From: a virus
IMG/VR virus record: IMGVR_UViG_3300045988_088194
Length of the DNA stretch: 64,000 bases
Strand: one strand, 5' to 3'
The position numbers and the translations under genes were made by a program. The notes beneath the pieces were generated by a model. That model was not told the origin of the DNA, ran no database searches, and worked only from the letters and a program-made list of their open reading frames with translations. Shown piece after piece: positions 1,094 to 16,463 of the stretch. Within the stretch, counting starts at the first letter, position 1. The number at the start of each line of letters is the position of its first letter.

Positions 1094-1188
1094 AAAGGGC
1101 TATTGCTGAATAGTGGAGTTACTTCACTGATAATGAAATAAGTTTTTGGGTACTTAATTATACTCCACAAACTGTTGCATAGCCCTTT
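1094..1188 (+). ncRNA. long hairpin carrying the AGTTACTTC element (copy 1, permuted R-X-L form); possibly also the terminator of the upstream gene
   Basis: Outer stem AAAGGGCTAT/ATAGCCCTTT and inner stem GTGGAGT/ACTCCAC. ACTTC lies at 1121-1125, then a 29-nt apical segment, then TAATTAT. A T-run follows. The stems covary with the copy at 7467-7559. Confidence 0.5.
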
Positions 1189-2998: not shown

Positions 2999-3406
2999 AT
3001 GAGCTATTGGTCATTTACACTCAGTGTGCTGCTATGGGTGGGATTTGGTATAGTCTGTAGGGCATGCCTCCCACCTTTTGAGAAGGGAGCAGATAAACTG
3101 CTTAAAACCATGAGTTGGGCCCTCACTATAGCCACACTTGGTCTATGTGTGCTTGTTTCTTACGCAAGCATAGAGACAAACATAAACAAGGCTATTATAG
3201 ATTATGACAGAGGCAAGTACAAAGTAGAACTTAAAGTCAGTGTAGACACTGTTAGAACTATCAAATGCCCAAAGTTGTACAAACATACTGTCCCATATGT
3301 GACAGAACCACAGCCCATGAGATTTATACCACTAATAACTTGGGAGAAAGAGCAGGAATTACAAGATTCCTTACTGCCTTATTCACAGTTGGACTCTCTG
3401 AAATAG
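2999..3406 (+). CDS. hypothetical membrane protein
   Basis: Two N-terminal hydrophobic helices. The 3' third overlaps 3265..3492 in another frame. Confidence 0.45.
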   Translation: MSYWSFTLSVLLWVGFGIVCRACLPPFEKGADKLLKTMSWALTIATLGLCVLVSYASIETNINKAIIDYDRGKYKVELKVSVDTVRTIKCPKLYKHTVPYVTEPQPMRFIPLITWEKEQELQDSLLPYSQLDSLK

Positions 3407-3492
3407 ATGGATACAGGGTATGTGAATGTCTGAATTGTGGTAAGAAAAGACCCATTAGTGGGGACAATGAAAATTTAAGGTTTGGTATGTAA
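3265..3492 (+). CDS. zinc-ribbon protein (putative)
   Basis: CPIC...(40 aa)...CLNCG four-Cys pattern. Overlaps the previous ORF by 142 nt. Confidence 0.45.
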   Translation: MPKVVQTYCPICDRTTAHEIYTTNNLGERAGITRFLTALFTVGLSEIDGYRVCECLNCGKKRPISGDNENLRFGM

Positions 3493-3496
3493 AATT

Positions 3497-3529
3497 ATTT
3501 GGTAACATCAATTATTTTACTTACCTTTG
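3497..3529 (+). promoter_or_regulatory. Bacteroidota-type promoter (-33 TTTG / -7 TAnnTTTG)
   Basis: TTTG at 3497-3500, a 21-nt spacer, then TACCTTTG at 3522-3529, 27 nt upstream of ATG 3556. Confidence 0.5.
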
Positions 3530-3555
3530 TTAAACAATTAAAACATTAGTTTACT

Positions 3556-4965
3556 ATGTCTAAGTTGAATCCAACCATTAAGCCAACATCTAAATTTACA
3601 GATGAAAGACTTGCTGGAGGTAGTGGTGCTCTTGCTGCTAAGCAGTCAAACATTGCTCTCCTTAAAAGACTCACCTTGGCTAATCTTCTTTGGGAAGATG
3701 CTGCCTATTGTGATGGCAAGAAGATTGCTGAAGAGATTGAAAGGCTCATACCTCTGTGTAGTGCAGAAGATGTATATACTGTTGCTTTGGCAGCAAGAAC
3801 TCTACAGAAACTCAGGCACACACCTTTGTTTCTGGCATCTGAAATGTGCAAATACCCTGAACACAGGCTATTTGTAAGAGACTTACTGCCAAAGATTATA
3901 ACAAGGGCAGATATGCTGACTGACTTCCTCTCTATATACTGGAAAGAAGAAAAGAAGCCACTGGCTAATCAGGCAAAGAAAGGACTTGCAGCAGCATTTC
4001 ATAACTTCAATGCTTATAAGTTTGCAAAGTATGACAGAGATGCTGCAATAAAACTCAGAGATGTAATGTTTCTTGTTCACCCAAGACCTTGTGATGAAAA
4101 GGAAGCAGAACTCTTCAAGATGATTGCTTCAAGAACTCTTCCTGTACCTGAAACTTGGGAAACAATGCTCTCTGCTGGTAAAGATAAAAAAGAAACCTGG
4201 ACTAAACTTATCACTGAAGATAAGATTGGAGGTTTAGCTTTCTTGAGAAATCTTAAAAACATGAGGGAAGCTGGTGTAGACAAGAAAGTAATAAAATATG
4301 GCTTTGAAAGTCTTAAGGCTTCAATGCTGTTGCCTATGAATTTCTTGCAAGCAGCCAGAATGAATCCTGAGTTTGAGAGGGATATAGAAGATGCTATGAT
4401 AACTTCATGGTCCAATCTTCCTAAAATCCCTGGTAGGACTCTGTTCATACTTGATGCTTCTGGTTCTATGGAGTGGGCTGAAATCTCAAAAAAGTCCAAA
4501 CTCACAAGGTTTGATGCTGCAAAGGCTATGGCTATGCTTGCTGCAAACCAGTGTGAAGACTTTGAGTTGGTGGTAACTGCTGGTGATGACTATGCCAGAA
4601 AGCATAAATCAGAAGTAATCAAATATCCTTCAAAGGGATTCAACCTTCTAAAGCAGATAGATGAAGCAAAGAAGAGGGTTGGAGGTGGAGGAATCTTCAC
4701 AAGACAATGTCTTGAGTGGTCAAGAGAACAGTTTACTGGAGAGTTTGACAGAATAATCATATTCTCAGACTCACAGGACTGTGACTACCCTGAGAAGAGA
4801 GTTCCAAAGCCTTTTGGAAAACACAACTACATCTGTGATGTATCATCTGAACTGCATGGTGTGAACTATAGGGGTGCTTGGGATGCTGAAATAAGTGGCT
4901 TCTCAGAGCATTTCCTAACTTTCATAGCAGCATATGAAGGTATTGAGAATACTTTTAATGAATGA
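3556..4965 (+). CDS. TROVE (Ro60/Rsr-like) domain protein with C-terminal vWA domain
   Basis: N-terminal AGGSGA...LFLASE...ITRADMLTDF...AYKFAKYDRDAAIKLRDVMFLVHPRP matches the TROVE pattern (..yqlaKY...lRDvlrl.HPkP). The C-terminus has a vWA MIDAS motif, LFILDASGSM, then VVTAGDD and IIIFSDSQD. Confidence 0.75.
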   Translation: MSKLNPTIKPTSKFTDERLAGGSGALAAKQSNIALLKRLTLANLLWEDAAYCDGKKIAEEIERLIPLCSAEDVYTVALAARTLQKLRHTPLFLASEMCKYPEHRLFVRDLLPKIITRADMLTDFLSIYWKEEKKPLANQAKKGLAAAFHNFNAYKFAKYDRDAAIKLRDVMFLVHPRPCDEKEAELFKMIASRTLPVPETWETMLSAGKDKKETWTKLITEDKIGGLAFLRNLKNMREAGVDKKVIKYGFESLKASMLLPMNFLQAARMNPEFERDIEDAMITSWSNLPKIPGRTLFILDASGSMEWAEISKKSKLTRFDAAKAMAMLAANQCEDFELVVTAGDDYARKHKSEVIKYPSKGFNLLKQIDEAKKRVGGGGIFTRQCLEWSREQFTGEFDRIIIFSDSQDCDYPEKRVPKPFGKHNYICDVSSELHGVNYRGAWDAEISGFSEHFLTFIAAYEGIENTFNE

Positions 4966-5207
4966 GACAGACAATAGGAAACATTCAGGGATATGATGTA
5001 ATCTATGTCCCTGAGAAAAGAATCCTATTCTGTAAGAACACTGCTGTTCCTTATGACCTTCTTAAGGAGGCTGTCTATGGTGACATGGACAGGTATGACA
5101 TACCTCAAAAGAATCTGGTCATAAGGAAGAGTGGTGAAATTATAGAGTTTGGATGCTTGACAACAACTATAGAAAAGGCCAAGAGCATATTGGCAAGTGT
5201 TTATTAA
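4962..5207 (+). CDS. hypothetical protein
   Basis: ORF overlapping the upstream stop by 4 nt (ATGA). No motif recognised. Confidence 0.5.
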   Translation: MRQTIGNIQGYDVIYVPEKRILFCKNTAVPYDLLKEAVYGDMDRYDIPQKNLVIRKSGEIIEFGCLTTTIEKAKSILASVY

Positions 5208-5219
5208 GAAAAAAAAACA

Positions 5220-6608
5220 ATGGAACAAACAATTATCCAGAGCACAAAGGATGTGCTTAAGAAGAAAGTAAACTTCTTTGAACAGCAACAGAAAGAGCGT
5301 ATTATCACAGCCTGTAAGTCAGACATGAAGTATGCAGAAGTTCTGGCATTCATCAAAAATGAGATAGAAATGTCTGAACAGGATGTATCACTAAACTACA
5401 ACATCAAATGTTGGAAGACTGATGGTGCATTCCAGTTTAACAAGGCTGTTGAAGAGATATTTGGCTCAGTAAAGGCTGAGAAAGATGCAGGTCCTTCAGG
5501 CTCTGGTAATATCAATACTCTTGATGTTGTCCTTGCTGATGGCTCAAGAACAAAAGTACCTTTTGGTAAGATTTCATTGCCTGAACTTGGTGAGAATTCC
5601 TATATAGAGCTGAACTACTCTAATAGTGCTTCAGAACTGGTTATAACAGGAGTATGCAAATCCAAGTATCAGTCCATGATTGATGATATTGTGGACAGGA
5701 CAAGGGAGCTCATTGCTATAAACTCTATCTACAAGAATCAAGCTCTTGAGATAACAGAGAAAGGCAAAGAGCCTAAGAGACTCAATCTCAGCCATATAGA
5801 TGGTCAGTTGATGGTCTTGTCAAAACAGACAGAGTTTGACCTTCAGCCTTTGAGGTCAAGAATCCTGTATCCTGAGAAATGTCTCAAGGCAGGCATTCCC
5901 CTTAAGTATGGATGTCTGTTTGAAGGGAAATATGGTACTGGAAAGACTCTTCTTGCATTTAAACTTGCAAGAGAGGCTACCAAGAACAACTGGACTTTCA
6001 TCTATCTTAAGAATCCTTCTCTTCTTGCAGAGACCTTGAGGATGGTGAAAATCATAGACAGGTCATGCAATGGAGTGATAGTCTTTGTAGAGGACATTGA
6101 CCAGGTTACAAGAGGGGAGAGGGATGCATCTCTTCAGGATATTCTGAACACTCTTGATGGTGGTGATACCAAAGATATGAATGTCATTACTTTGTTCACC
6201 ACCAACCACATAGAACTTATTGAACCTACATTCCTCAGAGGAAAGAGAATTGGTTCAGTGGTTACTATGGACTGTCTTGATAAGGAGACAGCATTGAGGT
6301 TCATCAAAGAGTCCTTCAAAGATGGATATGAGATTGGTGAACTTAAAGAGTCCCTTGACCTCATAGAGGAGATGGAGATAGCACCTGCATTCATGGCAGA
6401 GATAGTTGAATCTATCAAGAGTAAACTTATCTTTGCAGAGACCAACCTTGTAACTGATGATATTCTCAAAGGTGCTGTCAAGGCTTATAACAGACAGGTA
6501 AACCTCTCAAGAAAGAAGGATATGAGCATGACTCCTGAGAAGGAGTTCTACCAGAGTATGCAAACTATAATGGCTGAAGGAATCAAGCAGGTTCTTAGAG
6601 GCAAATAG
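5220..6608 (+). CDS. AAA+ ATPase (classical AAA family)
   Basis: Walker A GKYGTGKTLL, Walker B VIVFVEDIDQV, sensor-1 LFTTNH and a second region of homology, PTFLRGKRIG. Confidence 0.85.
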   Translation: MEQTIIQSTKDVLKKKVNFFEQQQKERIITACKSDMKYAEVLAFIKNEIEMSEQDVSLNYNIKCWKTDGAFQFNKAVEEIFGSVKAEKDAGPSGSGNINTLDVVLADGSRTKVPFGKISLPELGENSYIELNYSNSASELVITGVCKSKYQSMIDDIVDRTRELIAINSIYKNQALEITEKGKEPKRLNLSHIDGQLMVLSKQTEFDLQPLRSRILYPEKCLKAGIPLKYGCLFEGKYGTGKTLLAFKLAREATKNNWTFIYLKNPSLLAETLRMVKIIDRSCNGVIVFVEDIDQVTRGERDASLQDILNTLDGGDTKDMNVITLFTTNHIELIEPTFLRGKRIGSVVTMDCLDKETALRFIKESFKDGYEIGELKESLDLIEEMEIAPAFMAEIVESIKSKLIFAETNLVTDDILKGAVKAYNRQVNLSRKKDMSMTPEKEFYQSMQTIMAEGIKQVLRGK

Positions 6609-6618
6609 GGGGGTTACT

Positions 6619-6888
6619 ATGAAAATACAGGTCAGTCCAAAAGCATCTGAGTGGATATTGAAGCAGCCTTGGCTATCTCAGTTTGTAGATAACTGTGTAG
6701 CAATTAAGACCCCCCCAGATATGATACTTGCCTATCTTCTTGGTACGGAGTCATACAGCACGATTTTTAGTGCTTTCACCTGGAGTAGTACTCCTGAAGG
6801 TGGAGATTTCTGGAGCAAGATTGATGATGAGATATCAGAGGTTAGTGAGGAGGAAAACTGGGATGATATTACCACTATAGAGATATAG
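6619..6888 (+). CDS. hypothetical acidic protein
   Basis: ORF preceded by GGGGGGTTACT. No motif recognised. Confidence 0.5.
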   Translation: MKIQVSPKASEWILKQPWLSQFVDNCVAIKTPPDMILAYLLGTESYSTIFSAFTWSSTPEGGDFWSKIDDEISEVSEEENWDDITTIEI

Positions 6889-6892
6889 TGAA

Positions 6893-6913
6893 AGAGGCAG
6901 CAAGTCTGCCTCT
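6893..6913 (+). other. 8-bp hairpin between the CDS and the tRNA array (terminator or processing stem?)
   Basis: AGAGGCAG-CAAGT-CTGCCTCT. No T-run follows. Confidence 0.35.
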
Positions 6914-6917
6914 ATAT

Positions 6918-7002
6918 GCAGGGATGGCAGAATGGATTATGCACCAGTCTTCTAAACTGGGTTCTGAATGGAACAATGTGAGTTCGAGTCTCACTCCCTG
7001 TA
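6918..7002 (+). tRNA. type-II (long variable arm) tRNA with anticodon TCT; CCA encoded at 7003-7005
   Basis: - Acceptor: GCAGGGA/TCCCTGT (G1-U72).
- D stem: 3 bp, GCA/TGC.
- Anticodon arm: CCAGT-CTTCTAA-ACTGG.
- Variable arm: 17 nt, GTTC-TGAATG-GAAC-AAT.
- T arm: GTGAG-TTCGAGT-CTCAC.
- Discriminator: A73. Confidence 0.7.
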
Positions 7003-7069
7003 CCAAATAAATTCCTTTTTTGGGGGATGAATATGGACAGGTCTGCTGTGAAGTAAACTTGTTCATTAC

Positions 7070-7143
7070 ACTCACATAGCTCAACTGGTCAGAGCAGGAC
7101 TCTTATACAGTCAAGGTTGGGGGTTCAAGTCCCTCTGTGAGTA
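7070..7143 (+). tRNA. tRNA-Ile (anticodon TAT)
   Basis: Acceptor ACTCACA/TGTGAGT, D arm GCTC-AACTGGTCA-GAGC, anticodon arm GGACT-CTTATAC-AGTCA (one G-A mismatch), T arm GGGGG-TTCAAGT-CCCTC. Confidence 0.85.
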
Positions 7144-7223
7144 CTAAAGAAAGAACAGATGGAAAAGTTAAAGGAATATCTTTGGAATGAGTGGAGATAT
7201 AATAATGCTCCTAAATTCCTCAA

Positions 7224-7270
7224 ATACTTTGAAGAGTAGTTTGAAAACCTCACAGATTTGCAGATACTTC
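7224..7270 (+). repeat. degenerate copy of the AGTTACTTC element
   Basis: ATACTTTGAAGAGTAGTTTG...GCAGATACTTC aligns with TTACTTCTGAAGAGATAGTGTT...GAGAGTTACTTC in the tRNA-Met insert. Confidence 0.3.
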
Positions 7271-7321
7271 AGTATACTGCATAATGGAAGGATACAAGAC
7301 CATTTTATAAGACAACATAAA

Positions 7322-7458
7322 GCATTACATAGTGCGGGGTAGAGTTACTTCAGATTAGATAAATGGTTATATCATAAGATTGTGGTTCTTAAATTTGTTG
7401 GTTCGAGTCCAGCATCTGGCTATAAACACTCTATCAATTATTCTTGTAATGCTTTTTT
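7322..7458 (+). ncRNA. long stem structure (permuted R-X-L element, copy 2) enclosing the tRNA-His-like module
   Basis: Outer stem GCATTAC (7322-7328) / GTAATGC (7446-7452) followed by TTTTTT. Inner stem GGTAGAGT (7338-7345) / ACTCTATC (7428-7435). ACTTC lies at 7347-7351 and TATAAAC at 7421-7427. Confidence 0.5.
7349..7421 (+). tRNA. tRNA-His-like (anticodon GTG), atypical acceptor end
   Basis: D arm GATA-AATGGTTA-TATC, anticodon arm TAAGA-TTGTGGT-TCTTA (perfect) and T arm GTTGG-TTCGAGT-CCAGC. The acceptor TTCAGAT/ATCTGGC has a T1-C72 mismatch and a T2-G71 wobble. There is no G-1/C73. Confidence 0.65.
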
Positions 7459-7466
7459 GAAATATA

Positions 7467-7559
7467 GACACTATTGTTGGTATTTAGAGTTACTTCATCC
7501 ATGATTTAAATTATTGCAAATAACTTTTAACAGAACTCTAAAGATTGTTACATAGTGTC
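7467..7559 (+). ncRNA. long hairpin carrying the AGTTACTTC element (copy 3, permuted R-X-L form)
   Basis: Outer stem GACACTAT/ATAGTGTC, a G-U-rich middle helix and a perfect 9-bp inner stem, TTTAGAGTT (7483-7491) / AACTCTAAA (7534-7542). ACTTC lies at 7492-7496, then a 31-nt apical segment, then TAACAG. Confidence 0.5.
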
Positions 7560-7571
7560 TTCAATATAAAC

Positions 7572-7696
7572 TTCCCTGTAGCTCAATTGGTAGAGCATGT
7601 ATAGAACTGTGAAGAATGTTCCCTAATTGTGGTGATGTTTACAGTTACTTCAGATTTGTAATCTCAGGGTTCTTGGTTCAAGTCCAAGCAGGGAAG
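7572..7696 (+). tRNA. tRNA-Thr (anticodon TGT) interrupted by a 52-nt intervening sequence
   Basis: Acceptor TTCCCTG/CAGGGAA, D arm GCTC-AATTGGTA-GAGC and T arm CTTGG-TTCAAGT-CCAAG. Removing 7600-7651 gives the anticodon arm TGAGA-TTTGTAA-TCTCA and a 73-nt canonical tRNA. Confidence 0.75.
7600..7651 (+). other. 52-nt intervening sequence in tRNA-Thr (between positions 28 and 29)
   Basis: TATAG-[AACTGTGAA]-24 nt-[TTTACAGTT]-ACTTC, a 9-bp hairpin. Homologous to 8810-8864. Confidence 0.65.
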
Positions 7697-7741
7697 TTTT
7701 TTAATAGAAACCTTAATACTATTATATATAATAATGGAGGA

Positions 7742-7840
7742 ATGATTATGATTCAGGTTTTTAGGGCACTGGCAGTGGCTTCTTTGGTATTAGCACTGGT
7801 GTTTATTATCTTTATATCGTCTGGCACGGATGATGATTGA
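7742..7840 (+). CDS. small hydrophobic protein (32 aa)
   Basis: Track ORF 7616..7840 trimmed to ATG 7742, which follows GGAGGA. The upstream part of the track ORF overlaps tRNA-Thr. Single TM-like segment. Confidence 0.4.
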   Translation: MIMIQVFRALAVASLVLALVFIIFISSGTDDD

Positions 7841-7889
7841 CTGGGGTGAACCTGTTGAAATTAAATAACTATGAAAACAATTGAAAATC

Positions 7890-8177
7890 ATGACTAACAA
7901 GGAAATTATAAAGTTTTTGAAAGAATATCCATTGGACAGGTATATTATTCTTACAACACTGTTAGAGGATGATACAATTTCAATTGCAGAACTTGTCAAG
8001 CACAAGGAGGACTCCCTTAAGAAAGTAGTAGGGGAAAAGACAGAAGAATTAGCAAATGCATGTGCACTTATTATAAGGTATAAGGATAAAATAAATACCA
8101 ATACCGTTGAAGCTGATGCACAGAATTTTTTAGAGAATTGCAGCTGCACTGCATTTACTGGATATGGCACTAAATAA
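7890..8177 (+). CDS. hypothetical protein
   Basis: The track ORF starts at TTG 7881. The first ATG is at 7890. No motif recognised. Confidence 0.55.
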   Translation: MTNKEIIKFLKEYPLDRYIILTTLLEDDTISIAELVKHKEDSLKKVVGEKTEELANACALIIRYKDKINTNTVEADAQNFLENCSCTAFTGYGTK

Positions 8178-8194
8178 GTGCAGAAAATTATATT

Positions 8195-8371
8195 ATGATG
8201 ACAGTAAAAAATCTTATTGATGAACTTAAAAAGTTTCCTGAAGATGCAGATGTCCTTATGACTGAGTTGAAACATACAAATGGATATCATAGACTCAAGT
8301 ATATTGGAGGAATGAAGGTACAGGACCCTTCAAATGGTTCTGAATCAACCTGTCCAGTTCTTGTGTTTTAG
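8195..8371 (+). CDS. hypothetical protein (58 aa)
   Basis: Hand-translated ORF below the track cutoff: MMTVKNLIDELKKFPEDADVLMTELKHTNGYHRLKYIGGMKVQDPSNGSESTCPVLVF. Confidence 0.5.
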   Translation: MMTVKNLIDELKKFPEDADVLMTELKHTNGYHRLKYIGGMKVQDPSNGSESTCPVLVF

Positions 8372-8377
8372 TGGAAT

Positions 8378-8785
8378 GGGGGTGTTTTGGTTTTGATTAC
8401 ACTCTATTTGGTAGTACCTTATGCAGTAGATGGGCAGTCTACTATAAAAGAGCCCAAAACAATTAAATGCTAACAAAGTTAGAAAATCAGTTAGAAGCCT
8501 TGTAGATTATATTAAATCTGCTATGCAGGCACCAGCAATTTCAGCTTATGCTGTTGCTGCCTAACAAAAGGCTTTAGTATTTGAGCCTTAATCAAGTACT
8601 TGGTGGAAGATGGGTGGATACCCAAATATGACTGCATGGCCTTGTAATTAGCAGAGGAAGAAGGAGTCAAGGGACGGTTTAATGGGACAGATTTCCATCT
8701 ATAGTAATAATCTGTCATCCTAAGCATATAAATAAAGGTATTATTGAAGGTTTGTAAGACACAGGTTCGAGTCCTGTCACCTCCA
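8378..8785 (+). ncRNA. ssrA: tmRNA (transfer-messenger RNA)
   Basis: - 5' end: GGGGGTGTTTTGGTTTTGA.
- 3' end: ACAGG-TTCGAGT-CCTGT-CACCTCC-A.
- Together these form a tRNA-Ala-like acceptor with G3-U70.
- CCTAAGCATATA box near the 3' domain.
- Internal tag frame: GCT ATG CAG GCA CCA GCA ATT TCA GCT TAT GCT GTT GCT GCC TAA (8520-8564), ending ..AYAVAA. Confidence 0.85.
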
Positions 8786-8794
8786 CTAATAAAT

Positions 8795-8922
8795 GGGGAA
8801 GTAGCATAATAAAAAACTCTTAAGCTTTTACTTCTGAAGAGATAGTGTTATTGAGAGTTACTTCAGGTTAATGCATTAGTTTCATAAGCTAAAGATTGTT
8901 TGTTCAAATCAAACCTTCCCCA
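8795..8922 (+). tRNA. tRNA-Met/Ile2-type (anticodon CAT) interrupted by a 55-nt intervening sequence in the D-loop; CCA encoded at 8923-8925
   Basis: Acceptor GGGGAAG/CTTCCCC, D stem GCAT (8804-8807) / ATGC (8871-8874) separated by 63 nt, anticodon arm TTAGT-TTCATAA-GCTAA and T arm GTTTG-TTCAAAT-CAAAC. Confidence 0.75.
8810..8864 (+). other. 55-nt intervening sequence in the tRNA-Met D-loop
   Basis: TAAAA-[AACTCTTAA]-27 nt-[TTGAGAGTT]-ACTTC. Removal leaves the D-loop AAAGGTTA. Boundaries were set by alignment with 7600-7651. Confidence 0.6.
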
Positions 8923-8958
8923 CCATAGAACAAGGCAGTAATAATAATAAGGGTGCTG

Positions 8959-8990
8959 ACCAGGTTCTCAAGGACACTTCAAAATAAGGT
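8959..8990 (+). terminator. rho-independent terminator after the RNA gene array
   Basis: AAGGACAC-loop-GTGTCCTT followed by TTTATTT. Confidence 0.7.
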
Positions 8991-9026
8991 GTCCTTTTTA
9001 TTTGTAAATCATTAAAATCTTATATT

Positions 9027-9410
9027 ATGATAGAGTATAAAGTTATAACTTGGAACTTCAGTACTGACAGAGTAGAGCATTATGATATAATGCCTTATCT
9101 GTACAGAAGACTTGAAGAGAAAAGAAAGAGGAAGCAGATAGCATTGAAAGACCTCACTTTGGAAAGGTTGAAGGAGTTCATTGATACTGAATCAAAGTAT
9201 CAGTTCTGGGCAAGATGCCAGTATGAAGTGATACTTTCTTCATGGCCTCCAAGAGAGAATGGACATAAGCATAAGATGGATGTATATGAACAGATTCATA
9301 TGAATCTTGACAATATAGCCAAACTTATGTATGATGACCTTCAGAAAGGAAAGTCTGCAAGAGCAACTAAGACTAGCAAGCACATAAGAGTTAAAACTTT
9401 AGATAGTTAA
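9027..9410 (+). CDS. hypothetical protein
   Basis: ORF. No motif recognised. Confidence 0.55.
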   Translation: MIEYKVITWNFSTDRVEHYDIMPYLYRRLEEKRKRKQIALKDLTLERLKEFIDTESKYQFWARCQYEVILSSWPPRENGHKHKMDVYEQIHMNLDNIAKLMYDDLQKGKSARATKTSKHIRVKTLDS

Positions 9411-9781
9411 TGAGCAGTCAGCCAAAAATTCTTCTCTCTATACAAGGTATAGAGGGAGGAACCCTAAGACCCATTGGGAAAAAGAGGGTCAATTGGTCCA
9501 TAACCAAAAAGGATTTGGACCCAAAATATCATGGTAAAGATGCATTTAAGCCAATCAGGAAAGGTCATATGGACATTCCTGAGTTTGAGAGTGTATCTTG
9601 CCAGCAGAGCATTAAACTCACACAGGATGCCTATGACTATATGACATCTTCTGAACAGCCTTACTGGTTCAAAGGTCCTTGGAAACTTATGACCAAGAAA
9701 CAGAGACTTGAGGTTCATCTTCAGAGGATATGTGATGATAGGGGAGGCACAAGTTACACCTATTCAATCCTTGAAGATTAA
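9410..9781 (+). CDS. hypothetical protein
   Basis: ORF with a start/stop overlap (TAATG). No motif recognised. Confidence 0.55.
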   Translation: MSSQPKILLSIQGIEGGTLRPIGKKRVNWSITKKDLDPKYHGKDAFKPIRKGHMDIPEFESVSCQQSIKLTQDAYDYMTSSEQPYWFKGPWKLMTKKQRLEVHLQRICDDRGGTSYTYSILED

Positions 9782-11148: not shown

Positions 11149-12306
11149 ATGGAAATAAAGATTGTATTGGGGCTTCTCTTTGGAGATGAAGGTAAGGGTA
11201 ACACAGTTCAGTGGCTCTGCAAGAAAGCCTTGGAAGAAGGTAAAAGACCTTGTGTAGTGCGTTTTTCAGGAGGTCCTCAGGCAGGACATACTGTAAGGCA
11301 TAATGGTATTACACATGTATGTTCTTCCTATGGCTCTGGTGTTCTTCTTGGAGTTCCTACACTGTATGTAGGAGGTCTTATTGACCCTCTATGTATATGG
11401 AATGAGAAGAAATCATTAGAAGAGAAAGGAGTGACGGTACCTCCTATCTATATAGGTGGAGAGGTTCCCCTGATAACTCCTTATGATGTAGCAGACCAAC
11501 TTGAGTGGTCTAAAGACCACCCTAACAGAACTTGTGGAAAGGGAGTAATGTCTGCTGTCTTGAGACAGAAAACCCGTCTAAGAGATAGATGTGCAGAGGC
11601 AGCAGACTTTTCTTCAAAGTCTTTTATTGAATATAAGTTAGAGCATATAAGAAAATTCTATGCTGAAGAAGGAATAACTGCTGACAAAGAGGTTGTCAAA
11701 GATTGGACAAAGGCAGGGTTGAACCTATGTAAGGACTTCTTCAAGTACAATATAGAGGATTTTGATGTTCTTATCTTTGAGGGAACTCAAGGACTTCTGT
11801 TAGATTCTGAATGTGGATTCTATCCTTATGTAACTTCAACTAAGGTAGGGCTCAATGGTGTCCCTAAAGAGTATCTTAAAGGTGCTGAAATATACCTTGT
11901 AACAAGGACTTATCTTACAAGACATGGAGAGATGGGACCACTTGAGAGGCAGTGGTTTGAGGGGAGAGAGAAGGAAGTACCTACTGATAAGTTAGAGACT
12001 AATGTCTTCAATGAACATCAGGGAGAGTTCCTTACTGCAAAGTATTATCCAGAACCTTACAAATATGCTGTACAAAGGCACTGTCTTGACAACATGCAGA
12101 AGAGGTATAACCTCACGATGAATCTTGTAGTTACTCATACTGATGTAGACTATTCTGAAGCTGGTGTATGTTTCCCTAAAGGAGACTGCTCTTTCTTTAT
12201 AAATAGTATATCAGGAACTCTTAAAGAGTTTCTTGTTCTACAGAACATTTATACCTCAGATAATCCTAACTCAAACTTTGAACTGTATGACACAAGAATT
12301 AACTGA
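11149..12306 (+). CDS. adenylosuccinate synthetase family protein (PurA/PurZ-like)
   Basis: N-terminal P-loop LLFGDEGKGNTVQW and the RFSGGPQAGHT motif are PurA-family signatures. At 385 aa it is shorter than typical bacterial PurA. Confidence 0.75.
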   Translation: MEIKIVLGLLFGDEGKGNTVQWLCKKALEEGKRPCVVRFSGGPQAGHTVRHNGITHVCSSYGSGVLLGVPTLYVGGLIDPLCIWNEKKSLEEKGVTVPPIYIGGEVPLITPYDVADQLEWSKDHPNRTCGKGVMSAVLRQKTRLRDRCAEAADFSSKSFIEYKLEHIRKFYAEEGITADKEVVKDWTKAGLNLCKDFFKYNIEDFDVLIFEGTQGLLLDSECGFYPYVTSTKVGLNGVPKEYLKGAEIYLVTRTYLTRHGEMGPLERQWFEGREKEVPTDKLETNVFNEHQGEFLTAKYYPEPYKYAVQRHCLDNMQKRYNLTMNLVVTHTDVDYSEAGVCFPKGDCSFFINSISGTLKEFLVLQNIYTSDNPNSNFELYDTRIN

Positions 12307-15317: not shown

Positions 15318-16061
15318 ATGAAAGCATTAGTGCTTGCAAAAAGTGGATTTGGGAAGAGTACCTCAATTGGTGCTATTCCTGAATTGGGACTTAAAGGGCT
15401 TGACCCAGCCAAGACTTATCTGATTAGCTGTGTGAATAAACCTCTTCCTTTTAGAGGTGCTGCTTCTCAGTATAAGATTGCCAAGGTTAAGAGTCAGCCA
15501 ACAGACAAGACTTTCCCTGCTGAGATAGCATCTGGGAACAGACTTATCTCTAATGATGCAAAGACCATTGCAGCAGTAATTGAACTGCTTGCTGATTCCC
15601 CTTATGAGAACATAGTTCTTGATGATATGAACTACATATCTCAGGACTTCTATATGAAGAATGCTCTCAAGGGAGGATGGGATACCCCAAAGCAGATTGG
15701 CTATGGTATGGGACTTATCTTTGATGCAATCAACAAGATTCCTGAAGATAAGAACATGATTTGTCTTGCTCATTATGAGGAGTACAAGGACAAAAATGGT
15801 GATAGTATCTCTTATAGATATAAGAGTACTGGAAACATGGTTGACCAATATATTACTCCAGAAGGTAAGTTTGAGGTAGTCCTTTATGGAAAAGCCTCAT
15901 ATGATGAGAAAGAAAAGAAGTCTATCAGAGAGTTTGTAACCAATGATGATGGACAGTATCCAGCAAAATCTCCTGTGGGAATGTTTCCATTGTATATACC
16001 TAATGACCTTGGGTATGTTGTGGATACCATGAAGGAGTATTACTTTGGAAGTAACAACTAA
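15318..16061 (+). CDS. P-loop ATPase (small RecA-like/Sak4-like phage ATPase)
   Basis: Walker A LAKSGFGKST at the extreme N-terminus and Walker B NIVLDDMNY. Confidence 0.6.
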   Translation: MKALVLAKSGFGKSTSIGAIPELGLKGLDPAKTYLISCVNKPLPFRGAASQYKIAKVKSQPTDKTFPAEIASGNRLISNDAKTIAAVIELLADSPYENIVLDDMNYISQDFYMKNALKGGWDTPKQIGYGMGLIFDAINKIPEDKNMICLAHYEEYKDKNGDSISYRYKSTGNMVDQYITPEGKFEVVLYGKASYDEKEKKSIREFVTNDDGQYPAKSPVGMFPLYIPNDLGYVVDTMKEYYFGSNN

Positions 16062-16073
16062 AAATAAATACAA

Positions 16074-16463
16074 ATGGAATTAAGTAGATATGAACTTGCT
16101 GCTGTCAAGAGGACAGCACAGATTATTAAGCCTAAGAGAGCTAAAATGGCTAAACTTATTGCCAAGAGGGATGCCCTTGACAATGAAATCAATGCTCTCC
16201 AGAATGAGATTGACCTTTGGGAGGCTCCTATCATAACCAAACATGGTTATTCTTCTGAACAGATTCTTTCAGGAGAGGCTGATGAGATAGCCTCACAGAC
16301 TGAGAATATGTCAGGGGTTTCTGTAGAAACTGTTGATGATACAGAGGAGGCTCCTTTGAGAACTGGTTTCTCAAGGGTAGAAGGGGAAGAAACTGCTGAT
16401 ACAGAGATTGCACATACATCAGTATCTGTGGATGAGGACCCATTCAAAGACCCAGAACTTTAA
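16074..16463 (+). CDS. hypothetical acidic coiled-coil protein
   Basis: ORF. No motif recognised. Confidence 0.5.
   Translation: MELSRYELAAVKRTAQIIKPKRAKMAKLIAKRDALDNEINALQNEIDLWEAPIITKHGYSSEQILSGEADEIASQTENMSGVSVETVDDTEEAPLRTGFSRVEGEETADTEIAHTSVSVDEDPFKDPEL

What the first reader, a model, noticed from the sequence alone, without database searches (positions are those of the whole stretch)
3556..8925. Candidate phage RNA quality-control or repair block: Ro60/TROVE-vWA protein, AAA+ ATPase, tRNA and tRNA-like RNAs, and tmRNA
**What is seen**
- A TROVE+vWA (Ro60/Rsr-like) ORF has its own Bacteroidota-type promoter.
- It is followed by a small ORF, a classical AAA+ ATPase and another small ORF.
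- Then comes an uninterrupted 2-kb array of structured RNAs, closed by a terminator at 8959-8990.

**Established background**
- In bacteria, Rsr works with Y RNAs, some of which mimic tRNA.
- rsr is genetically linked to RNA ligase (rtcB) operons.
- vWA proteins often pair with AAA+ ATPases.

**Inference**
The co-location suggests one functional module. I am not aware of such a module being described for crAss-like phages.
Basis: inference. Interest (0 to 1): 0.75.

Follow-up and report, generated by a model that had tools for sequence, protein, structure and literature searches.

The report
Phage Ro60 protein with tRNA-shaped Y RNAs
This crAss-like gut phage encodes a Ro60-type RNA-binding protein together with five previously unannotated partner RNAs, some shaped like tRNAs, that carry the Ro60-binding signature known from bacterial Y RNAs; the neighbouring AAA+ ATPase, ordinary tRNAs and tmRNA are just neighbours.

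Summary
The listed genes exist, but the block is not one module. ORF 3556-4965 is a Ro60/TROVE-vWA homologue. It is 68% identical to crAss001 Gp96, which is already annotated, and its family profile matches the solved Thermus phage phiLo Ro60 over its full length.

The new result concerns the "tRNA-like RNAs". Five RNAs on the + strand (1097-1185, 7323-7453, 7468-7560, 7571-7698, 8796-8926) share one structured module:
- a stem with a bulged U;
- URGYG(AA);
- a 9-bp stem;
- UUACUUC.

This module is a variant of the YrlA Y-RNA signature (GNCGAAN0-1G plus YUAY). It covaries strongly. It lies on the TROVE strand in 36 of 44 phage TROVE loci and 55 of 80 bacterial TROVE loci. It never occurs on the opposite strand, and it is absent from 803 kb of AAA+-only phage loci.

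Two window copies are tRNA-shaped, that is, circular permutations of YrlA with an open acceptor stem. One copy encloses the "tRNA-His".

The orf81-AAA+ pair is a separate cassette: TROVE and AAA+ are adjacent only in four near-identical genomes. No RNA ligase gene was found among the ORFs scanned, and three small ORFs interrupt the "RNA array".

Verdict: a phage Ro60-Y RNA system, a new variant of a known kind.

The parts
3556..4965 (+). Ro60/TROVE + vWA (MIDAS) RNA-binding protein, an orthologue of crAss001 Gp96
   Evidence: Pfam TROVE scores 52.2 bits (cutoff 23), and phrog_850 matches over the full length. It is 68% identical to crAss001 Gp96. The family profile matches phiLo Ro60 (9KOP/9L5Y) at E=3e-45, Xenopus and human Ro60 at about 1e-9 to 1e-10, and D. 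radiodurans Rsr at 1e-6. The DxSxS MIDAS residues are invariant.
3522..3529 (+). TAccTTTG, a match to the Bacteroides -7 promoter box (TAnnTTTG) 27 nt upstream of the TROVE ATG. Unverified.
   Evidence: Read directly from the sequence. The upstream TTTG lies about 30 nt away, a spacing longer than the one I recall as canonical.
1097..1185 (+). Y-RNA-like mini hairpin (module copy 1), followed by a U-run. It lies 2.4 kb upstream of TROVE.
   Evidence: Motif hit at 1104-1125. S1 is GGGCUAU/AUAGCCC, followed by a bulged U. Pair 11-51 is kept as C-G, a covariation relative to the family consensus G-C.
7323..7453 (+). Y-RNA-like RNA (copy 2). Its Ro-module stems S1 (GCAUUACA/UGUAAUGC) and S2 (GGUAGAGU/ACUCUAUC) enclose a complete cloverleaf, which was called 'tRNA-His(GUG)' at 7349-7421. 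A U-run follows at 7454-7459.
   Evidence: Exact motif at 7330-7351. The minimum-free-energy fold recovers S1 and S2 around the cloverleaf. ARAGORN and Rfam call the inner tRNA at 47.6 bits. The same design encloses a tRNA-Gln in L015 and L017.
7468..7560 (+). Y-RNA-like mini hairpin (copy 3)
   Evidence: Motif at 7475-7496. The stems are conserved while the loop varies by indels in four kin genomes. The MFE fold gives S1 and S2. Pair 11-51 is kept as U-A.
7571..7698 (+). tRNA-shaped Y-RNA-like RNA (copy 4). It has an open acceptor stem, a D arm, the Ro module in place of the anticodon arm, a variable-arm hairpin and a T arm. It is a circular permutation of YrlA.
   Evidence: Motif at 7630-7651. 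ARAGORN in intron mode calls a cloverleaf with a 35-37 nt insert. RNAalifold on 17 homologues finds compensatory changes in 19 of 25 pairs. Model R1 scores it at 112.5 bits, but it was in the training set.
8796..8926 (+). tRNA-shaped Y-RNA-like RNA (copy 5). The acceptor is GGGGAAG/CUUCCCC with an encoded ACCA end. The Ro module sits inside the D stem (GCAU/AUGC). An anticodon-like arm has the loop UUCAUAA, and a T arm follows.
   Evidence: Motif at 8843-8864. It is 97% conserved in L004 and L005. Model R1 matches it over the full length at 63.6 bits, E=6e-11, and it was not in the training set.
4962..5207 (+). orf81, the conserved partner of the AAA+ gene. It is part of a separate two-gene cassette, not of the TROVE module.
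   Evidence: It co-occurs with the AAA+ gene in about 45 TROVE-less phage loci. It has no Pfam or PHROG match.
5220..6608 (+). Classical-clade AAA+ ATPase (Cdc48-D2/PAN-like) with an unknown N-terminal domain (aa 1-210). An independent cassette.
   Evidence: PF00004 at 3.4e-14 and phrog_10440. The best PDB matches are VCP/Cdc48. There are no Ro-module motifs in 803 kb of AAA+-only loci.
6619..6888 (+). orf89, a small ORF found only in close kin genomes. Function unknown.
6918..7005 (+). tRNA-Arg(UCU) with an extra 14-nt variable-arm insert. An ordinary decoder with no Ro module.
   Evidence: ARAGORN and Rfam, 55.7 bits. The version in L005 and L006 is 73 nt.
7070..7144 (+). tRNA-Ile(UAU), an ordinary tRNA
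   Evidence: Rfam 64.7 bits
7744..8371 (+). Three small protein-coding ORFs that interrupt the 'RNA array': about 7744-7840 (a hydrophobic peptide of about 32 aa, if translation starts at the ATG next to GGAGG), 7881-8177 (98 aa) and 8195-8371 (58 aa).
   Evidence: ORF list. orf98 is 85% identical at the amino-acid level in L006. orf58 is 93% identical in L003 and 47% in L004 and L005. PHROG matches cover the N-terminus of orf58.
8378..8788 (+). tmRNA (SsrA). The tag peptide is ANKVRKSVRSLVDYIKSAMQAPAISAYAVAA.
   Evidence: ARAGORN and Rfam RF00023, 82 bits against a gathering score of 47.
8970..8996 (+). Intrinsic-terminator-like hairpin (10 bp) followed by a U-run
   Evidence: fold z-score -2.97

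Best explanation
The functional unit is a phage Ro60-Y RNA ribonucleoprotein system, not the whole 5.4-kb block.

**Shown**
- ORF 3556-4965 is a Ro60 (TROVE ring plus vWA/MIDAS) homologue.
- Five + strand RNAs in the window carry one structured module: stem S1, a bulged U, two pairs (R10-Y52 and G11-C51), the internal loop YGAA // N4-GUU, a 9-bp stem S2, then single-stranded UUACUUC.
- The module is found next to TROVE genes, on the same strand, in crAss-like phages, unrelated phages and bacteria of several phyla.
- It is a variant of the YrlA features GNCGAAN0-1G plus YUAY.
- It has the same layout as the published 5' end of the M. smegmatis YrlA RNA, which co-immunoprecipitates with Rsr.

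**Inferred**
- The phage Ro60 binds this module.
- The RNAs come in four architectures: mini hairpins (YrlB-like); a hairpin whose apex is a whole tRNA-His-like cloverleaf; a tRNA-shaped RNA with the module in place of the anticodon arm; and a tRNA-shaped RNA with the module inside the D arm, an anticodon-like loop and an encoded CCA end.
- The last two are circular permutations of YrlA. The 3-D layout is the same, but the ends lie at the acceptor stem instead of the Ro stem.

**Most likely mode of action (inferred by analogy)**
- The analogy is with D. radiodurans and Salmonella RYPER, and with the phage phiLo Ro60-Yrl-PNPase complexes formed in vitro.
- Early in infection (the crAss001 orthologue is an early gene), Ro60 loaded with these RNAs is tethered through the tRNA-like domain to a host factor that recognises tRNA or degrades RNA, such as PNPase.
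- This would redirect RNA decay or quality control, or protect or chaperone tRNA-like substrates.

**Neighbours, not components**
- The orf81-AAA+ cassette, orf89, tRNA-Arg, tRNA-Ile, three small ORFs and the tmRNA sit in a variable island of RNA and accessory genes.
- In this lineage the island has been wedged between TROVE and its RNAs. In crAss001-type genomes the RNAs follow the TROVE stop codon directly.
For: **Protein**
- Pfam TROVE is above its cutoff, phrog_850 matches over the full length, and the PDB profile hits Ro60 proteins.

**RNA motif in the window**
- There are 5 hits with at most 1 mismatch, all on the + strand, against 0.11 expected by chance.

**Linkage to TROVE**
- The motif gives 90 hits in 36 of 44 phage TROVE loci and 109 hits in 55 of 80 bacterial TROVE loci. 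All are on the TROVE strand and none on the opposite strand. There are 0 hits in 803 kb of AAA+-only loci.
- The reverse test started from the motif alone in IMG/VR. Among 120 stretches, 50 had a TROVE ORF in the fetched stretch, all 50 on the same strand, at a median distance of 215 nt.

**Structure**
- In 86 sequences, 91% of cells are paired against 42-54% in the slid controls. S1 was not used to select the sequences, and all 7 of its pairs covary. Pairs 10-52 and 11-51 are 98.8% paired.
- For the tRNA-shaped form, the acceptor, D, T, S2 and bulged-U helices are predicted independently, with 19 of 25 pairs showing compensatory changes.
- With CM R1, long hits of at least 57 bits occur only in TROVE loci. 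They include window 8795-8923, which was not in the training set.

**Link to YrlA**
- Rfam RF02553 gives sub-threshold hits that start at the motif in L040, L021, L035, L247, L267 and L280.
- The published motif, the YUAY element and the M. smegmatis 5' sequence fit the module layout.

**crAss001**
- Three such RNAs lie in the unannotated gap after Gp96.
- TROVE is an early gene in crAss001.

**AAA+ independence**
-.
Against: - No expression, processing or binding data exist for these RNAs.
- The window copies do not meet the strict GNCGAA consensus. All five have U instead of C, and the AA is variable.
- Rfam YrlA does not hit the window, even at E<=5.
- Folding energies of copies 2 and 3 are no better than those of shuffled sequences, so the evidence is comparative only.
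- The selection of S2 partners was partly circular, although shuffled controls gave 8% against 36% and S1 is an independent check.
- About 8 of 44 phage TROVE loci and 25 of 80 bacterial TROVE loci show no motif at this stringency.
- A few genuine-looking motif copies sit in tRNA arrays with no TROVE gene in the fetched stretch (L110, L120, L209).
- The downstream effector (PNPase or another factor) is pure analogy.
Confidence: 0.72

Rival explanations
1. One reading: TROVE-vWA, the AAA+ ATPase, the tRNAs, the tRNA-like RNAs and the tmRNA form one co-transcribed RNA quality-control and repair module, with the AAA+ acting on the vWA domain.
For: - In this genome and four near-identical ones the genes are contiguous and on the same strand. 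The orf81 start overlaps the TROVE stop codon.
- A tmRNA lies within about 3.5 kb of TROVE in roughly 10 of 44 phage TROVE loci, against 1 of 49 AAA+-only loci.
Against: - TROVE and AAA+ are adjacent only in genomes that are 93-97% identical. About 40 TROVE loci lack the AAA+, and 49 AAA+ loci lack TROVE and the RNA motif.
- Even among close kin, an HNH-like ORF separates TROVE from orf81 (L005).
- The ATPase is of the classical Cdc48/PAN type, not MoxR.
- No RtcB or ligase match was found in the ORFs scanned.
- Internal hairpin-plus-U-run sites and three ORFs break up the 'array'.
Confidence: 0.05
2. The repeated element is a cis-acting DNA or RNA signal of the phage's RNA-gene island, such as a promoter, terminator or processing site. 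On this view the tRNA-like elements are tRNA genes with inserts or decayed tRNA pseudogenes, unrelated to the TROVE protein.
For: - Several copies end in U-runs and could act as terminators (1186-1190, 7454-7459, 7698-7703).
- Copies flank or enclose tRNA-like sequences, and ARAGORN can read the module as an 'intron'.
- A few copies occur in tRNA arrays with no TROVE gene in the fetched stretch.
Against: - The same module accompanies TROVE/rsr genes in Acidobacteriota, Moraxella, Bacillota and unrelated phages of different GC content. It is always on the TROVE strand, and it is absent from tRNA-rich AAA+-only phage loci.
- The helices covary, so the element works at the RNA level.
- The 'anticodons' that ARAGORN assigns to homologues are arbitrary (Val, Ser, Thr, Stop, Phe and others).
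- The module has the layout of the Rsr-bound M. smegmatis YrlA.
Confidence: 0.08
3. The tRNA-shaped forms act mainly as tRNAs or tRNA decoys. They could be substrates for RNase P, CCA addition and perhaps aminoacylation, or baits for host anticodon nucleases and tRNA-targeting defences. Ro60 would serve as a stabilising or delivering handle rather than as a decay factor.
For: - The acceptor stems are open, 7 bp long and covarying. Several copies have an encoded CCA end (window 8924-8926; L029, L030, L036).
- Copy 5 and its homologues keep a 5-bp, 7-nt anticodon-like arm, mostly with U33.
- In crAss001 kin that arm and the T stem differ, with compensatory changes, while the rest of the RNA is identical.
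- M. smegmatis YrlA is cleaved by RNase P and gains CCA in vivo.
Against: - Copy 4 and its homologues have no anticodon loop at all.
- The anticodon-like loops show no consistent identity.
- There are no data on charging or cleavage.
- This model is compatible with the best explanation rather than exclusive of it.
Confidence: 0.15

Closest known systems
Bacterial Rsr (Ro60) with YrlA/YrlB Y RNAs (S. Typhimurium, M. smegmatis; Chen et al. 2014, PMC4201824)
   Same: - A Ro60 homologue is encoded within 4 kb of its RNAs, on the same strand.
- The 5' motif is of the GNCGAAN0-1G type, followed by a stem and YUAY (here UUAC).
- There is a tRNA-like domain with D and T arms.
- There are several RNAs per locus, including minimal ones (YrlB-like).
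- The M. smegmatis 5' end (GGGCGCUUGGUGAUGUGAGCCG) has the same layout.
   Different: - The window copies have U for C in the motif.
- Rfam RF02553 does not detect them.
- Two copies are circularly permuted: the acceptor stem is open, one copy has an encoded CCA end, and the Ro stem is capped by a loop.
- One copy encloses a whole cloverleaf.
- The genes are carried by a phage and, in the crAss001 orthologue, are expressed early.
- There is no rtcBA operon.
Thermus phage phiLo Ro60 with Yrl1/Yrl2 (NAR 2025, PMC12135203; PDB 9KOP, 9L5Y)
   Same: - It is the closest solved homologue: profile E=3e-45 over the full length.
- It is a phage-encoded Ro60 with adjacent Y-like RNAs that carry a CGAA-type motif.
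- Hijacking of host PNPase has been proposed for it.
   Different: The phiLo Yrl RNAs are described as stem-bulge-stem RNAs located upstream of the gene. In what I read, no tRNA-shaped or permuted forms are reported. The host and phage lineage are different.
crAss001 Gp96 'TROVE domain-containing protein' (MH675552; Shkoporov et al.)
   Same: It is 68% identical and lies at the same genomic position, at the early end of the genome and upstream of the SPFH and replication genes.
   Different: - In crAss001 the Y-like RNAs directly follow the gene, in an unannotated gap of about 900 nt (L001 about 5900-6480, which corresponds to MH675552 about 96,200-96,780 on the complementary strand).
- crAss001 has no AAA+ cassette.
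- The RNAs are not annotated in the record and are not mentioned in the papers I searched.
D. radiodurans RYPER (Rsr-Yrn1-PNPase)
   Same: The working model is the same: a Y RNA tethers the Ro60 ring to an exoribonuclease.
   Different: The effector here is unknown. Yrn1 has a different arrangement of its tRNA-like parts. The NCBIfam Rsr equivalog model is not met (23 bits against 900).
MoxR-type AAA+ / vWA protein pairs
   Same: A vWA-containing protein lies next to an AAA+ ATPase in this genome.
   Different: The ATPase is of the classical PF00004 Cdc48/PAN type, not MoxR (AAA_3 or AAA_5). The adjacency is not conserved.

Membership tests
Ro60 / TROVE protein family | TROVE (HEAT-repeat ring) domain above the curated threshold | tested here: met
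   PF05731 scores 52.2 bits against a cutoff of 23. phrog_850 matches at 8.5e-35 over aa 23-458.
Ro60 / TROVE protein family | C-terminal vWA domain with a MIDAS (DxSxS) motif | tested here: met
   Pfam vWA_Ro60 and VWA_2 are below threshold (20.9 and 20.3 bits). However, D300, S302 and S304 are invariant in the family alignment, and the profile aligns through the vWA domain of 9KOP and 1YVP.
Ro60 / TROVE protein family | Full-length homology to a structurally solved Ro60 | tested here: met
   9KOP/9L5Y at E=3e-45 (profile positions 12-449), human and Xenopus Ro60 at 3.5e-10 and 3.5e-9, and Rsr 2NVO at 1e-6.
Ro60 / TROVE protein family | NCBIfam 'RNA-binding protein Rsr' equivalog | tested here: not met
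   NF041674 scores 23.4 bits against a cutoff of 900. The protein is a divergent phage-type clade, not an Rsr equivalog.
Ro60 / TROVE protein family | Binds Y RNA or misfolded RNA | not testable with these tools
   Needs RIP or EMSA.
YrlA-type bacterial Y RNA (Rfam RF02553) | Reaches the Rfam gathering score | tested here: not met
   There is no YrlA hit in window 3000-9500 even at E<=5. Relatives score 31-45 bits against a gathering score of 69.
YrlA-type bacterial Y RNA (Rfam RF02553) | GNCGAAN0-1G motif near the Ro-binding stem | tested here: inconclusive
   Family-wide the motif is UGG(C/U)GAAG. The five window copies read UGCUGAAU, UAGUGCGG, UGUUGGUA, UGGUGAUG and UAGUGUUA. All have U at the C position, and the AA is variable.
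YrlA-type bacterial Y RNA (Rfam RF02553) | Conserved YUAY after the stem, at the start of the variable region | tested here: met
   UUAC(UUC) is invariant in all five window copies and nearly invariant in 86 family members. The feature is described in PMC4201824.
YrlA-type bacterial Y RNA (Rfam RF02553) | tRNA-like domain with D and T arms | tested here: met
   Copies 2, 4 and 5 have T arms, and copies 2 and 4 also have D arms. Copies 1 and 3 lack the domain and are YrlB-like.
YrlA-type bacterial Y RNA (Rfam RF02553) | Encoded within about 4 kb of the Ro60 gene on the same strand | tested here: met
   All five copies are on the + strand, 2.4 kb upstream or 2.4-4.0 kb downstream of TROVE. Across loci the motif occurs on the TROVE strand and never on the opposite strand.
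YrlA-type bacterial Y RNA (Rfam RF02553) | Topology: 5' and 3' ends in the Ro-binding stem, acceptor-like stem closed by a loop | tested here: not met
   Copies 4 and 5 have open acceptor stems and a capped Ro stem, which is a circular permutation. The canonical topology is seen in L040 7500-7615.
vWA-MoxR AAA+ pair | An ATPase of the MoxR family, with conserved adjacency to the vWA gene | tested here: not met
   The ATPase matches PF00004 and is Cdc48/PAN-like. The adjacency is limited to four near-identical genomes.
rsr-rtcBA RNA repair operon | RtcB ligase or RtcA cyclase linked to rsr | tested here: not met
   Pfam found no such domain in 20 window ORFs out to 19 kb. The neighbours are SPFH, PurA-like and helicase genes. 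Small ORFs with no hits cannot be excluded.
tmRNA (RF00023) | Gathering score reached, tag reading frame present, tRNA-like ends | tested here: met
   82 bits against a gathering score of 47, matching the model end to end (1-374). ARAGORN finds a tag ending in AVAA.
Canonical tRNA (for 7571-7698) | A 7-nt anticodon loop on a 5-bp stem | tested here: not met
   The anticodon arm is replaced by the 50-60 nt module. ARAGORN's intron mode assigns different, arbitrary anticodons to homologues.

The most novel reading that the evidence does not exclude
The tRNA-shaped Y RNAs are not mere tethers. They would be bifunctional 'tRNAs with a Ro60 handle'. Their features are an open acceptor stem of 7 bp, an encoded or added CCA end and, in one subclass, an anticodon-like arm that varies between otherwise identical phages. 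On this reading they are processed like tRNAs. They then either enter translation or act as decoys or sensors for host tRNA-targeting defences such as anticodon nucleases, with the early-expressed Ro60 protecting or delivering them. That would be a new anti-defence or translation-takeover strategy in the most abundant group of human gut phages.
Probability: 0.15. Interest if true: 0.85.

Novelty: new variant of a known kind. Interest (0 to 1): 0.62.

Why it matters
- **Gap filled.** Ro60-Y RNA particles are known in animals, some bacteria and a few phages. crAss-like phages are among the most abundant viruses in the human gut, and for them only an orphan 'TROVE protein' had been annotated.
- **A testable RNP.** Candidate partner RNAs are now defined for a whole set of crAss-like and other TROVE phages, with coordinates, a covarying structure and a searchable signature. 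In crAss001 they are three unannotated RNAs right after gp96. An unexplained early gene thus becomes a directly testable RNP.
- **Plasticity of the fold.** The permuted, tRNA-shaped forms show that the YrlA design tolerates re-connection of its strands. This bears on how Y RNAs evolved from tRNAs and on what the tRNA-like domain recruits.
- **Annotation.** 'tRNA-His' at 7349-7421 and similar calls are probably domains of Y RNAs rather than decoders. The Rfam YrlA model misses this large subgroup in phages and in bacteria.
- **Speculative.** Gut bacterial Ro60 orthologues have been discussed as triggers of anti-Ro60 autoimmunity (from my own knowledge, not checked here). An abundant phage-encoded Ro60 RNP in the gut could be relevant to that question.

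Tried and rejected
- **Megablast.** A search of 3400-9100 against GenBank phages found nothing. Only protein-level searches linked the window to crAss001.
- **Rfam on the window.** No Y-RNA family was found, so the family had to be built de novo from the recurring 10-mer AGTTACTTCA.
- **Regex sorting.** A crude regex classification of hairpin versus tRNA-embedded forms was unreliable. It was replaced by a partner search with shuffled controls.
- **Alternative pairing.** Pairing of loop nucleotides 10-12 with 44-46 was tested. It was inferior (78% paired, no double changes) to pairs 10-52 and 11-51 (98.8%).
- **Folding energy.** Thermodynamic z-scores do not support copies 2 and 3.
- **Database scan noise.** Many hits of the motif scan in IMG/VR that lacked TROVE were chance matches inside coding DNA.
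- **Anticodon-like loops.** A tabulation across loci gave no consistent identity.
- **Literature.** Two reviews (PMC10870794, PMC6047535) are not held.
- **AAA+ function.** The N-terminal domain of the AAA+ and orf81 remain unexplained. I ran no further search on them, because synteny had already separated them from the TROVE system.
- **Defence role.** PADLOC gave only weak IetA-like hits for the AAA+.
- **Introns.** I considered whether the tRNA-like elements are intron-containing tRNAs and rejected this: the assigned anticodons are arbitrary, and the module is conserved and TROVE-linked.

Full report
**1. What is in the window**

The region lies in a crAss-like (Steigviridae-type) phage genome. 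Giant RNAP-like ORFs lie downstream. The closest cultured relative at protein level is crAss001. Four IMG/VR contigs of about 103 kb share 93-97% TROVE identity.

- The TROVE ORF is 3556-4965.
- orf81 (4962-5207) overlaps the TROVE stop codon.
- The AAA+ ORF is 5220-6608, and orf89 is 6619-6888.
- ARAGORN and Rfam call tRNA-Arg(UCU) 6918-7005, tRNA-Ile(UAU) 7070-7144, 'tRNA-His' 7349-7421 and a tmRNA at 8378-8788 (82 bits against a gathering score of 47).
- A hairpin followed by a U-run lies at 8970-8996.
- A TAnnTTTG box lies at 3522-3529, before the ATG at 3556.

The claim of an 'uninterrupted 2-kb array of structured RNAs' is wrong. Three small ORFs occupy about 7744-8371. Two of them are conserved at protein level in kin genomes.

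**2. The protein**

- Pfam TROVE scores 52.2 bits against a cutoff of 23. phrog_850 ('RNA-binding protein') matches over the full length.
- A profile built from ten phage homologues matches the solved Ro60 of Thermus phage phiLo at E=3e-45 over the full length. It also matches human and Xenopus Ro60 and D. radiodurans Rsr.
- The MIDAS DxSxS residues are invariant.
- The NCBIfam Rsr equivalog is not met (23 bits against 900). The protein therefore belongs to a divergent, phage-type Ro60 clade.
- The orthologue in crAss001 (Gp96, 68% identity) is already annotated. It has been reported as an early gene and 'a possible ribonucleoprotein component'.

**3. Synteny splits the block**

I ran tblastn with all the block's proteins against 98 loci fetched around TROVE or AAA+ relatives.
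- TROVE and orf81-AAA+ are adjacent only in the four near-identical genomes.
- About 40 other TROVE loci have no AAA+.
- 49 other loci have orf81-AAA+ but no TROVE within 8 kb. In those loci the cassette sits inside tRNA arrays of other large phages.
- No contig is shared between the two sets apart from the four kin.
- In one kin genome (L005) an HNH-like ORF is inserted between TROVE and orf81.
- The ATPase is a classical Cdc48-D2/PAN-like AAA+, not the MoxR type that partners with vWA proteins.
- No RtcB, ligase or cyclase domain was found in the block or in flanking ORFs out to 19 kb. The neighbours are SPFH, PurA-like and helicase genes.

The AAA+ part and the 'repair' part of the interpretation therefore fail.

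**4. The RNAs: a TROVE-linked module**

Reading 6860-9060 showed the 10-mer AGTTACTTCA four times. A fifth copy lies at 1117. The same 10-mer occurs on the + strand just after TROVE in nearly every crAss-like TROVE locus. This includes the unannotated gap of about 900 nt after crAss001 gp96. It also occurs before TROVE in distant phages with 36-42% TROVE identity.

Aligning 42 distinct copies gave a fixed-spacing signature: U-R-G-Y-G, then 8 nt, then AGUUACUUC.
- **In the window:** 5 hits with at most 1 mismatch, all on the + strand, against 0.11 expected.
- **By locus class:** 90 hits in 36 of 44 phage TROVE loci and 109 hits in 55 of 80 bacterial or MAG TROVE loci. The bacterial loci include Acidobacteriota chromosomes, Moraxella, Bacillota and Rhodanobacteraceae. 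Every hit is on the TROVE strand and none is on the opposite strand. There are zero hits in 803 kb of AAA+-only phage loci.
- **Reverse test:** I scanned IMG/VR for the motif alone. It returned 120 stretches. Of these, 50 contained a TROVE ORF, all 50 on the same strand, at a median distance of 215 nt. Most of the remaining stretches with long flanks are chance matches in coding DNA.

**5. Structure of the module**

I joined the two halves of 86 distinct copies, with the loops excised, and counted pairs.
- S1 (7 bp) was not used to select the sequences. All seven pairs covary, and 84% of cells are paired.
- A bulged U follows S1. Then come pairs R10-Y52 (GC 69, AU 13) and G11-C51, which are 98.8% paired.
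- An internal loop follows: YGAA on the 5' side, and four variable nucleotides plus GUU on the 3' side.
- S2 (9 bp, 94.6% paired, with up to six pair types per position) comes next, then single-stranded UUACUUC.
- Overall, 91% of cells are paired against 42-54% in the slid controls, and 0 of 500 shuffles reach the observed covariation.
- Within this one genome, pair 11-51 appears as G-C (three copies), C-G (copy 1) and U-A (copy 3).

**6. Identity of the module**

The paper that defined bacterial YrlA RNAs describes a GNCGAAN0-1G motif near the 5' end. It is thought to be the Rsr contact and resembles the vertebrate GGUCCGA. The paper also describes a conserved YUAY that begins the variable region.
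- Family-wide, the motif found here is UGG(C/U)GAAG, then a stem, then UUAC(UUC).
- The 5' end of M. smegmatis YrlA, as given in the primers of that paper (GGGCGCUUGGUGAUGUGAGCCG ... CACUUC), has the same layout. That RNA co-immunoprecipitates with Rsr, is cleaved by RNase P, and receives CCA in vivo.
- Rfam's YrlA model hits relatives only below threshold (31-45 bits against a gathering score of 69), starting at the motif. It does not hit the window at all.

This is therefore a YrlA-related subgroup that the curated model misses.

**7. Architectures in the window**

1. **1097-1185:** a mini hairpin followed by a U-run.
2. **7323-7453:** S1 (GCAUUACA/UGUAAUGC) and S2 (GGUAGAGU/ACUCUAUC) enclose the whole 'tRNA-His' cloverleaf, and a U-run follows. 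The MFE fold recovers this arrangement. L015 and L017 have the same design around a tRNA-Gln.
3. **7468-7560:** a mini hairpin. The stems are conserved and the loop varies by indels among kin.
4. **7571-7698:** acceptor stem, D arm, the module capped by a UAAUU loop in place of the anticodon arm, a variable-arm hairpin and a T arm.
   - ARAGORN in intron mode recognises this design here and in 20 other TROVE loci, with arbitrary 'anticodons'.
   - RNAalifold on 17 of them independently predicts the acceptor, D, T, S2 and bulged-U helices. Compensatory changes occur in 19 of 25 pairs, and there are eight different acceptor sequences.
5. **8796-8926:** acceptor GGGGAAG/CUUCCCC with an encoded ACCA end, the module inside the D stem, an anticodon-like arm (loop UUCAUAA) and a T arm.
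   - A covariance model built without this copy matches it end to end at 63.6 bits, E=6e-11.
   - With that model, long hits of at least 57 bits occur only in TROVE loci. AAA+-only loci yield only ordinary tRNAs.

In L040 the same module carries a canonical YrlA-type domain: T arm, closed acceptor hairpin, then D arm. Copies 4 and 5 are therefore circular permutations of YrlA. The junction is the same, but the termini lie at the acceptor stem and the Ro stem is capped.

**8. How it most likely works**

*Shown:* a Ro60 homologue, and a family of structured RNAs that co-evolve with it in position and strand.

*Inferred:*
- Ro60 binds the bulged-U helix and YGAA module. This follows from the Xenopus, Deinococcus and Mycobacterium data cited.
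- The tRNA-like domain recruits a tRNA-recognising or RNA-degrading host factor, as in RYPER. In-vitro complexes of phiLo Ro60, Yrl RNA and PNPase have been reported for Thermus phage phiLo.
- The crAss001 orthologue is expressed within 10 minutes of infection. The RNP probably acts in early takeover of host RNA metabolism.

The effector and the biological outcome are unknown. An alternative or additional role is that the tRNA-shaped forms act as processed tRNAs or as decoys. This is not excluded, and it is the most novel reading.

**9. The rest of the block**

- tRNA-Arg(UCU) and tRNA-Ile(UAU) are ordinary decoders.
- The tmRNA is complete. A tmRNA lies within about 3.5 kb of TROVE in roughly ten phage TROVE loci, against one of 49 AAA+-only loci. 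Its position relative to TROVE varies, and the loci are phylogenetically dependent. I read this as clustering of small-RNA genes in one variable early-region island.
- The island is a hot spot for insertions: HNH-like ORFs in L004 and L005, and the orf81-AAA+ cassette here.

**10. Novelty**

Phage Ro60 genes and phage YrlA-like RNAs have been known since 2014, and the phiLo structure dates from 2025. The crAss001 TROVE gene is annotated.

I found no paper in the held library that combines crAss terms with 'Y RNA'. The RNAs are not annotated in the crAss001 or cr106_1 records. The permuted, open-acceptor, tRNA-shaped architecture and the cloverleaf-enclosing architecture appear to be new variants.

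**Verdict:** a real feature and a new variant of a known kind.

Noticed in passing
L004 15373-16222 (corresponds to window position 8768, inside the tmRNA T-arm region): One kin genome has an insertion of about 850 bp in the 3' part of the tmRNA gene. The insertion carries a 191-aa HNH-like ORF on the opposite strand (15574-16149). It may be an intron or a homing element in ssrA. ARAGORN no longer calls the tmRNA in that genome.
   Followed up: partly
L005 9413-9964: A 183-aa HNH-like ORF (CxxC ... HHLDN ... CSNCH) is inserted exactly between the TROVE stop codon and orf81 in a kin genome. The TROVE/orf81 overlap is therefore not conserved even within the species-level group.
   Followed up: partly
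L049-L098 (about 49 IMG/VR contigs of 93-270 kb), position about 7700-9400 in each locus: The orf81-AAA+ pair is a conserved two-gene cassette that is repeatedly nested inside dense tRNA arrays of other large phages. A tRNA lies about 20 nt upstream and another 200-400 nt downstream. L081 also has suppressor-like tRNAs and a tmRNA next to it. The function is unknown, and the cassette is not linked to TROVE.
   Followed up: partly
L001 6339-6478, L008 9841-9980, L010 7902-8040 (crAss001 and close kin): The D-arm-type tRNA-shaped Y-like RNA is identical across these phages except for the anticodon-like arm and the T stem. Those differ with compensatory changes (loops UUAGGGA, UUUGGGU, CAGUAAA). 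This suggests localised swapping or diversification.
   Followed up: partly
window 6918-7005: tRNA-Arg(UCU) carries an extra hairpin of about 14 nt in the variable region (88 nt in total). The kin genomes L005 and L006 have a normal 73-nt version.
   Followed up: no
window 1097-1185: A fifth copy of the Ro module lies 2.4 kb upstream of TROVE, directly after ORF 278-1090. It ends in a U-run, so it may also serve as that gene's terminator.
   Followed up: partly
L219-L229 (genome contigs): Short contigs binned into MAGs labelled Melainabacteria, Bacilli, Clostridia, Fibrobacter and others carry TROVE genes 59-93% identical to the window. Several also carry the same RNA motifs. They are most likely crAss-like phage contigs binned by mistake into bacterial MAGs.
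   Followed up: no
L243 (Candidatus Angelobacter MAG) 285-1870, upstream of rsr: At least eight tandem copies of the Ro module lie upstream of a bacterial rsr gene (motif starts at 285, 362, 490, 640, 791, 1029, 1362, 1818). This is an unusually large Y-RNA array.
   Followed up: no
window 11149-12306: The phage encodes an adenylosuccinate synthetase-like protein (PF00709, 1.4e-31) just downstream of the SPFH gene.
   Followed up: no
L001 1112-1203, L010 1405-1495, L008 5336-5425: Long tRNAs of 90-91 nt with long variable arms lie upstream of TROVE in crAss001-type phages. In crAss001 the gene is annotated 'tRNA-OTHER (taat)'. They score 52-57 bits against the tRNA-shaped Y-RNA model R1 but lack the Ro module. 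Their relationship to the Y-like RNAs is unclear.
   Followed up: no
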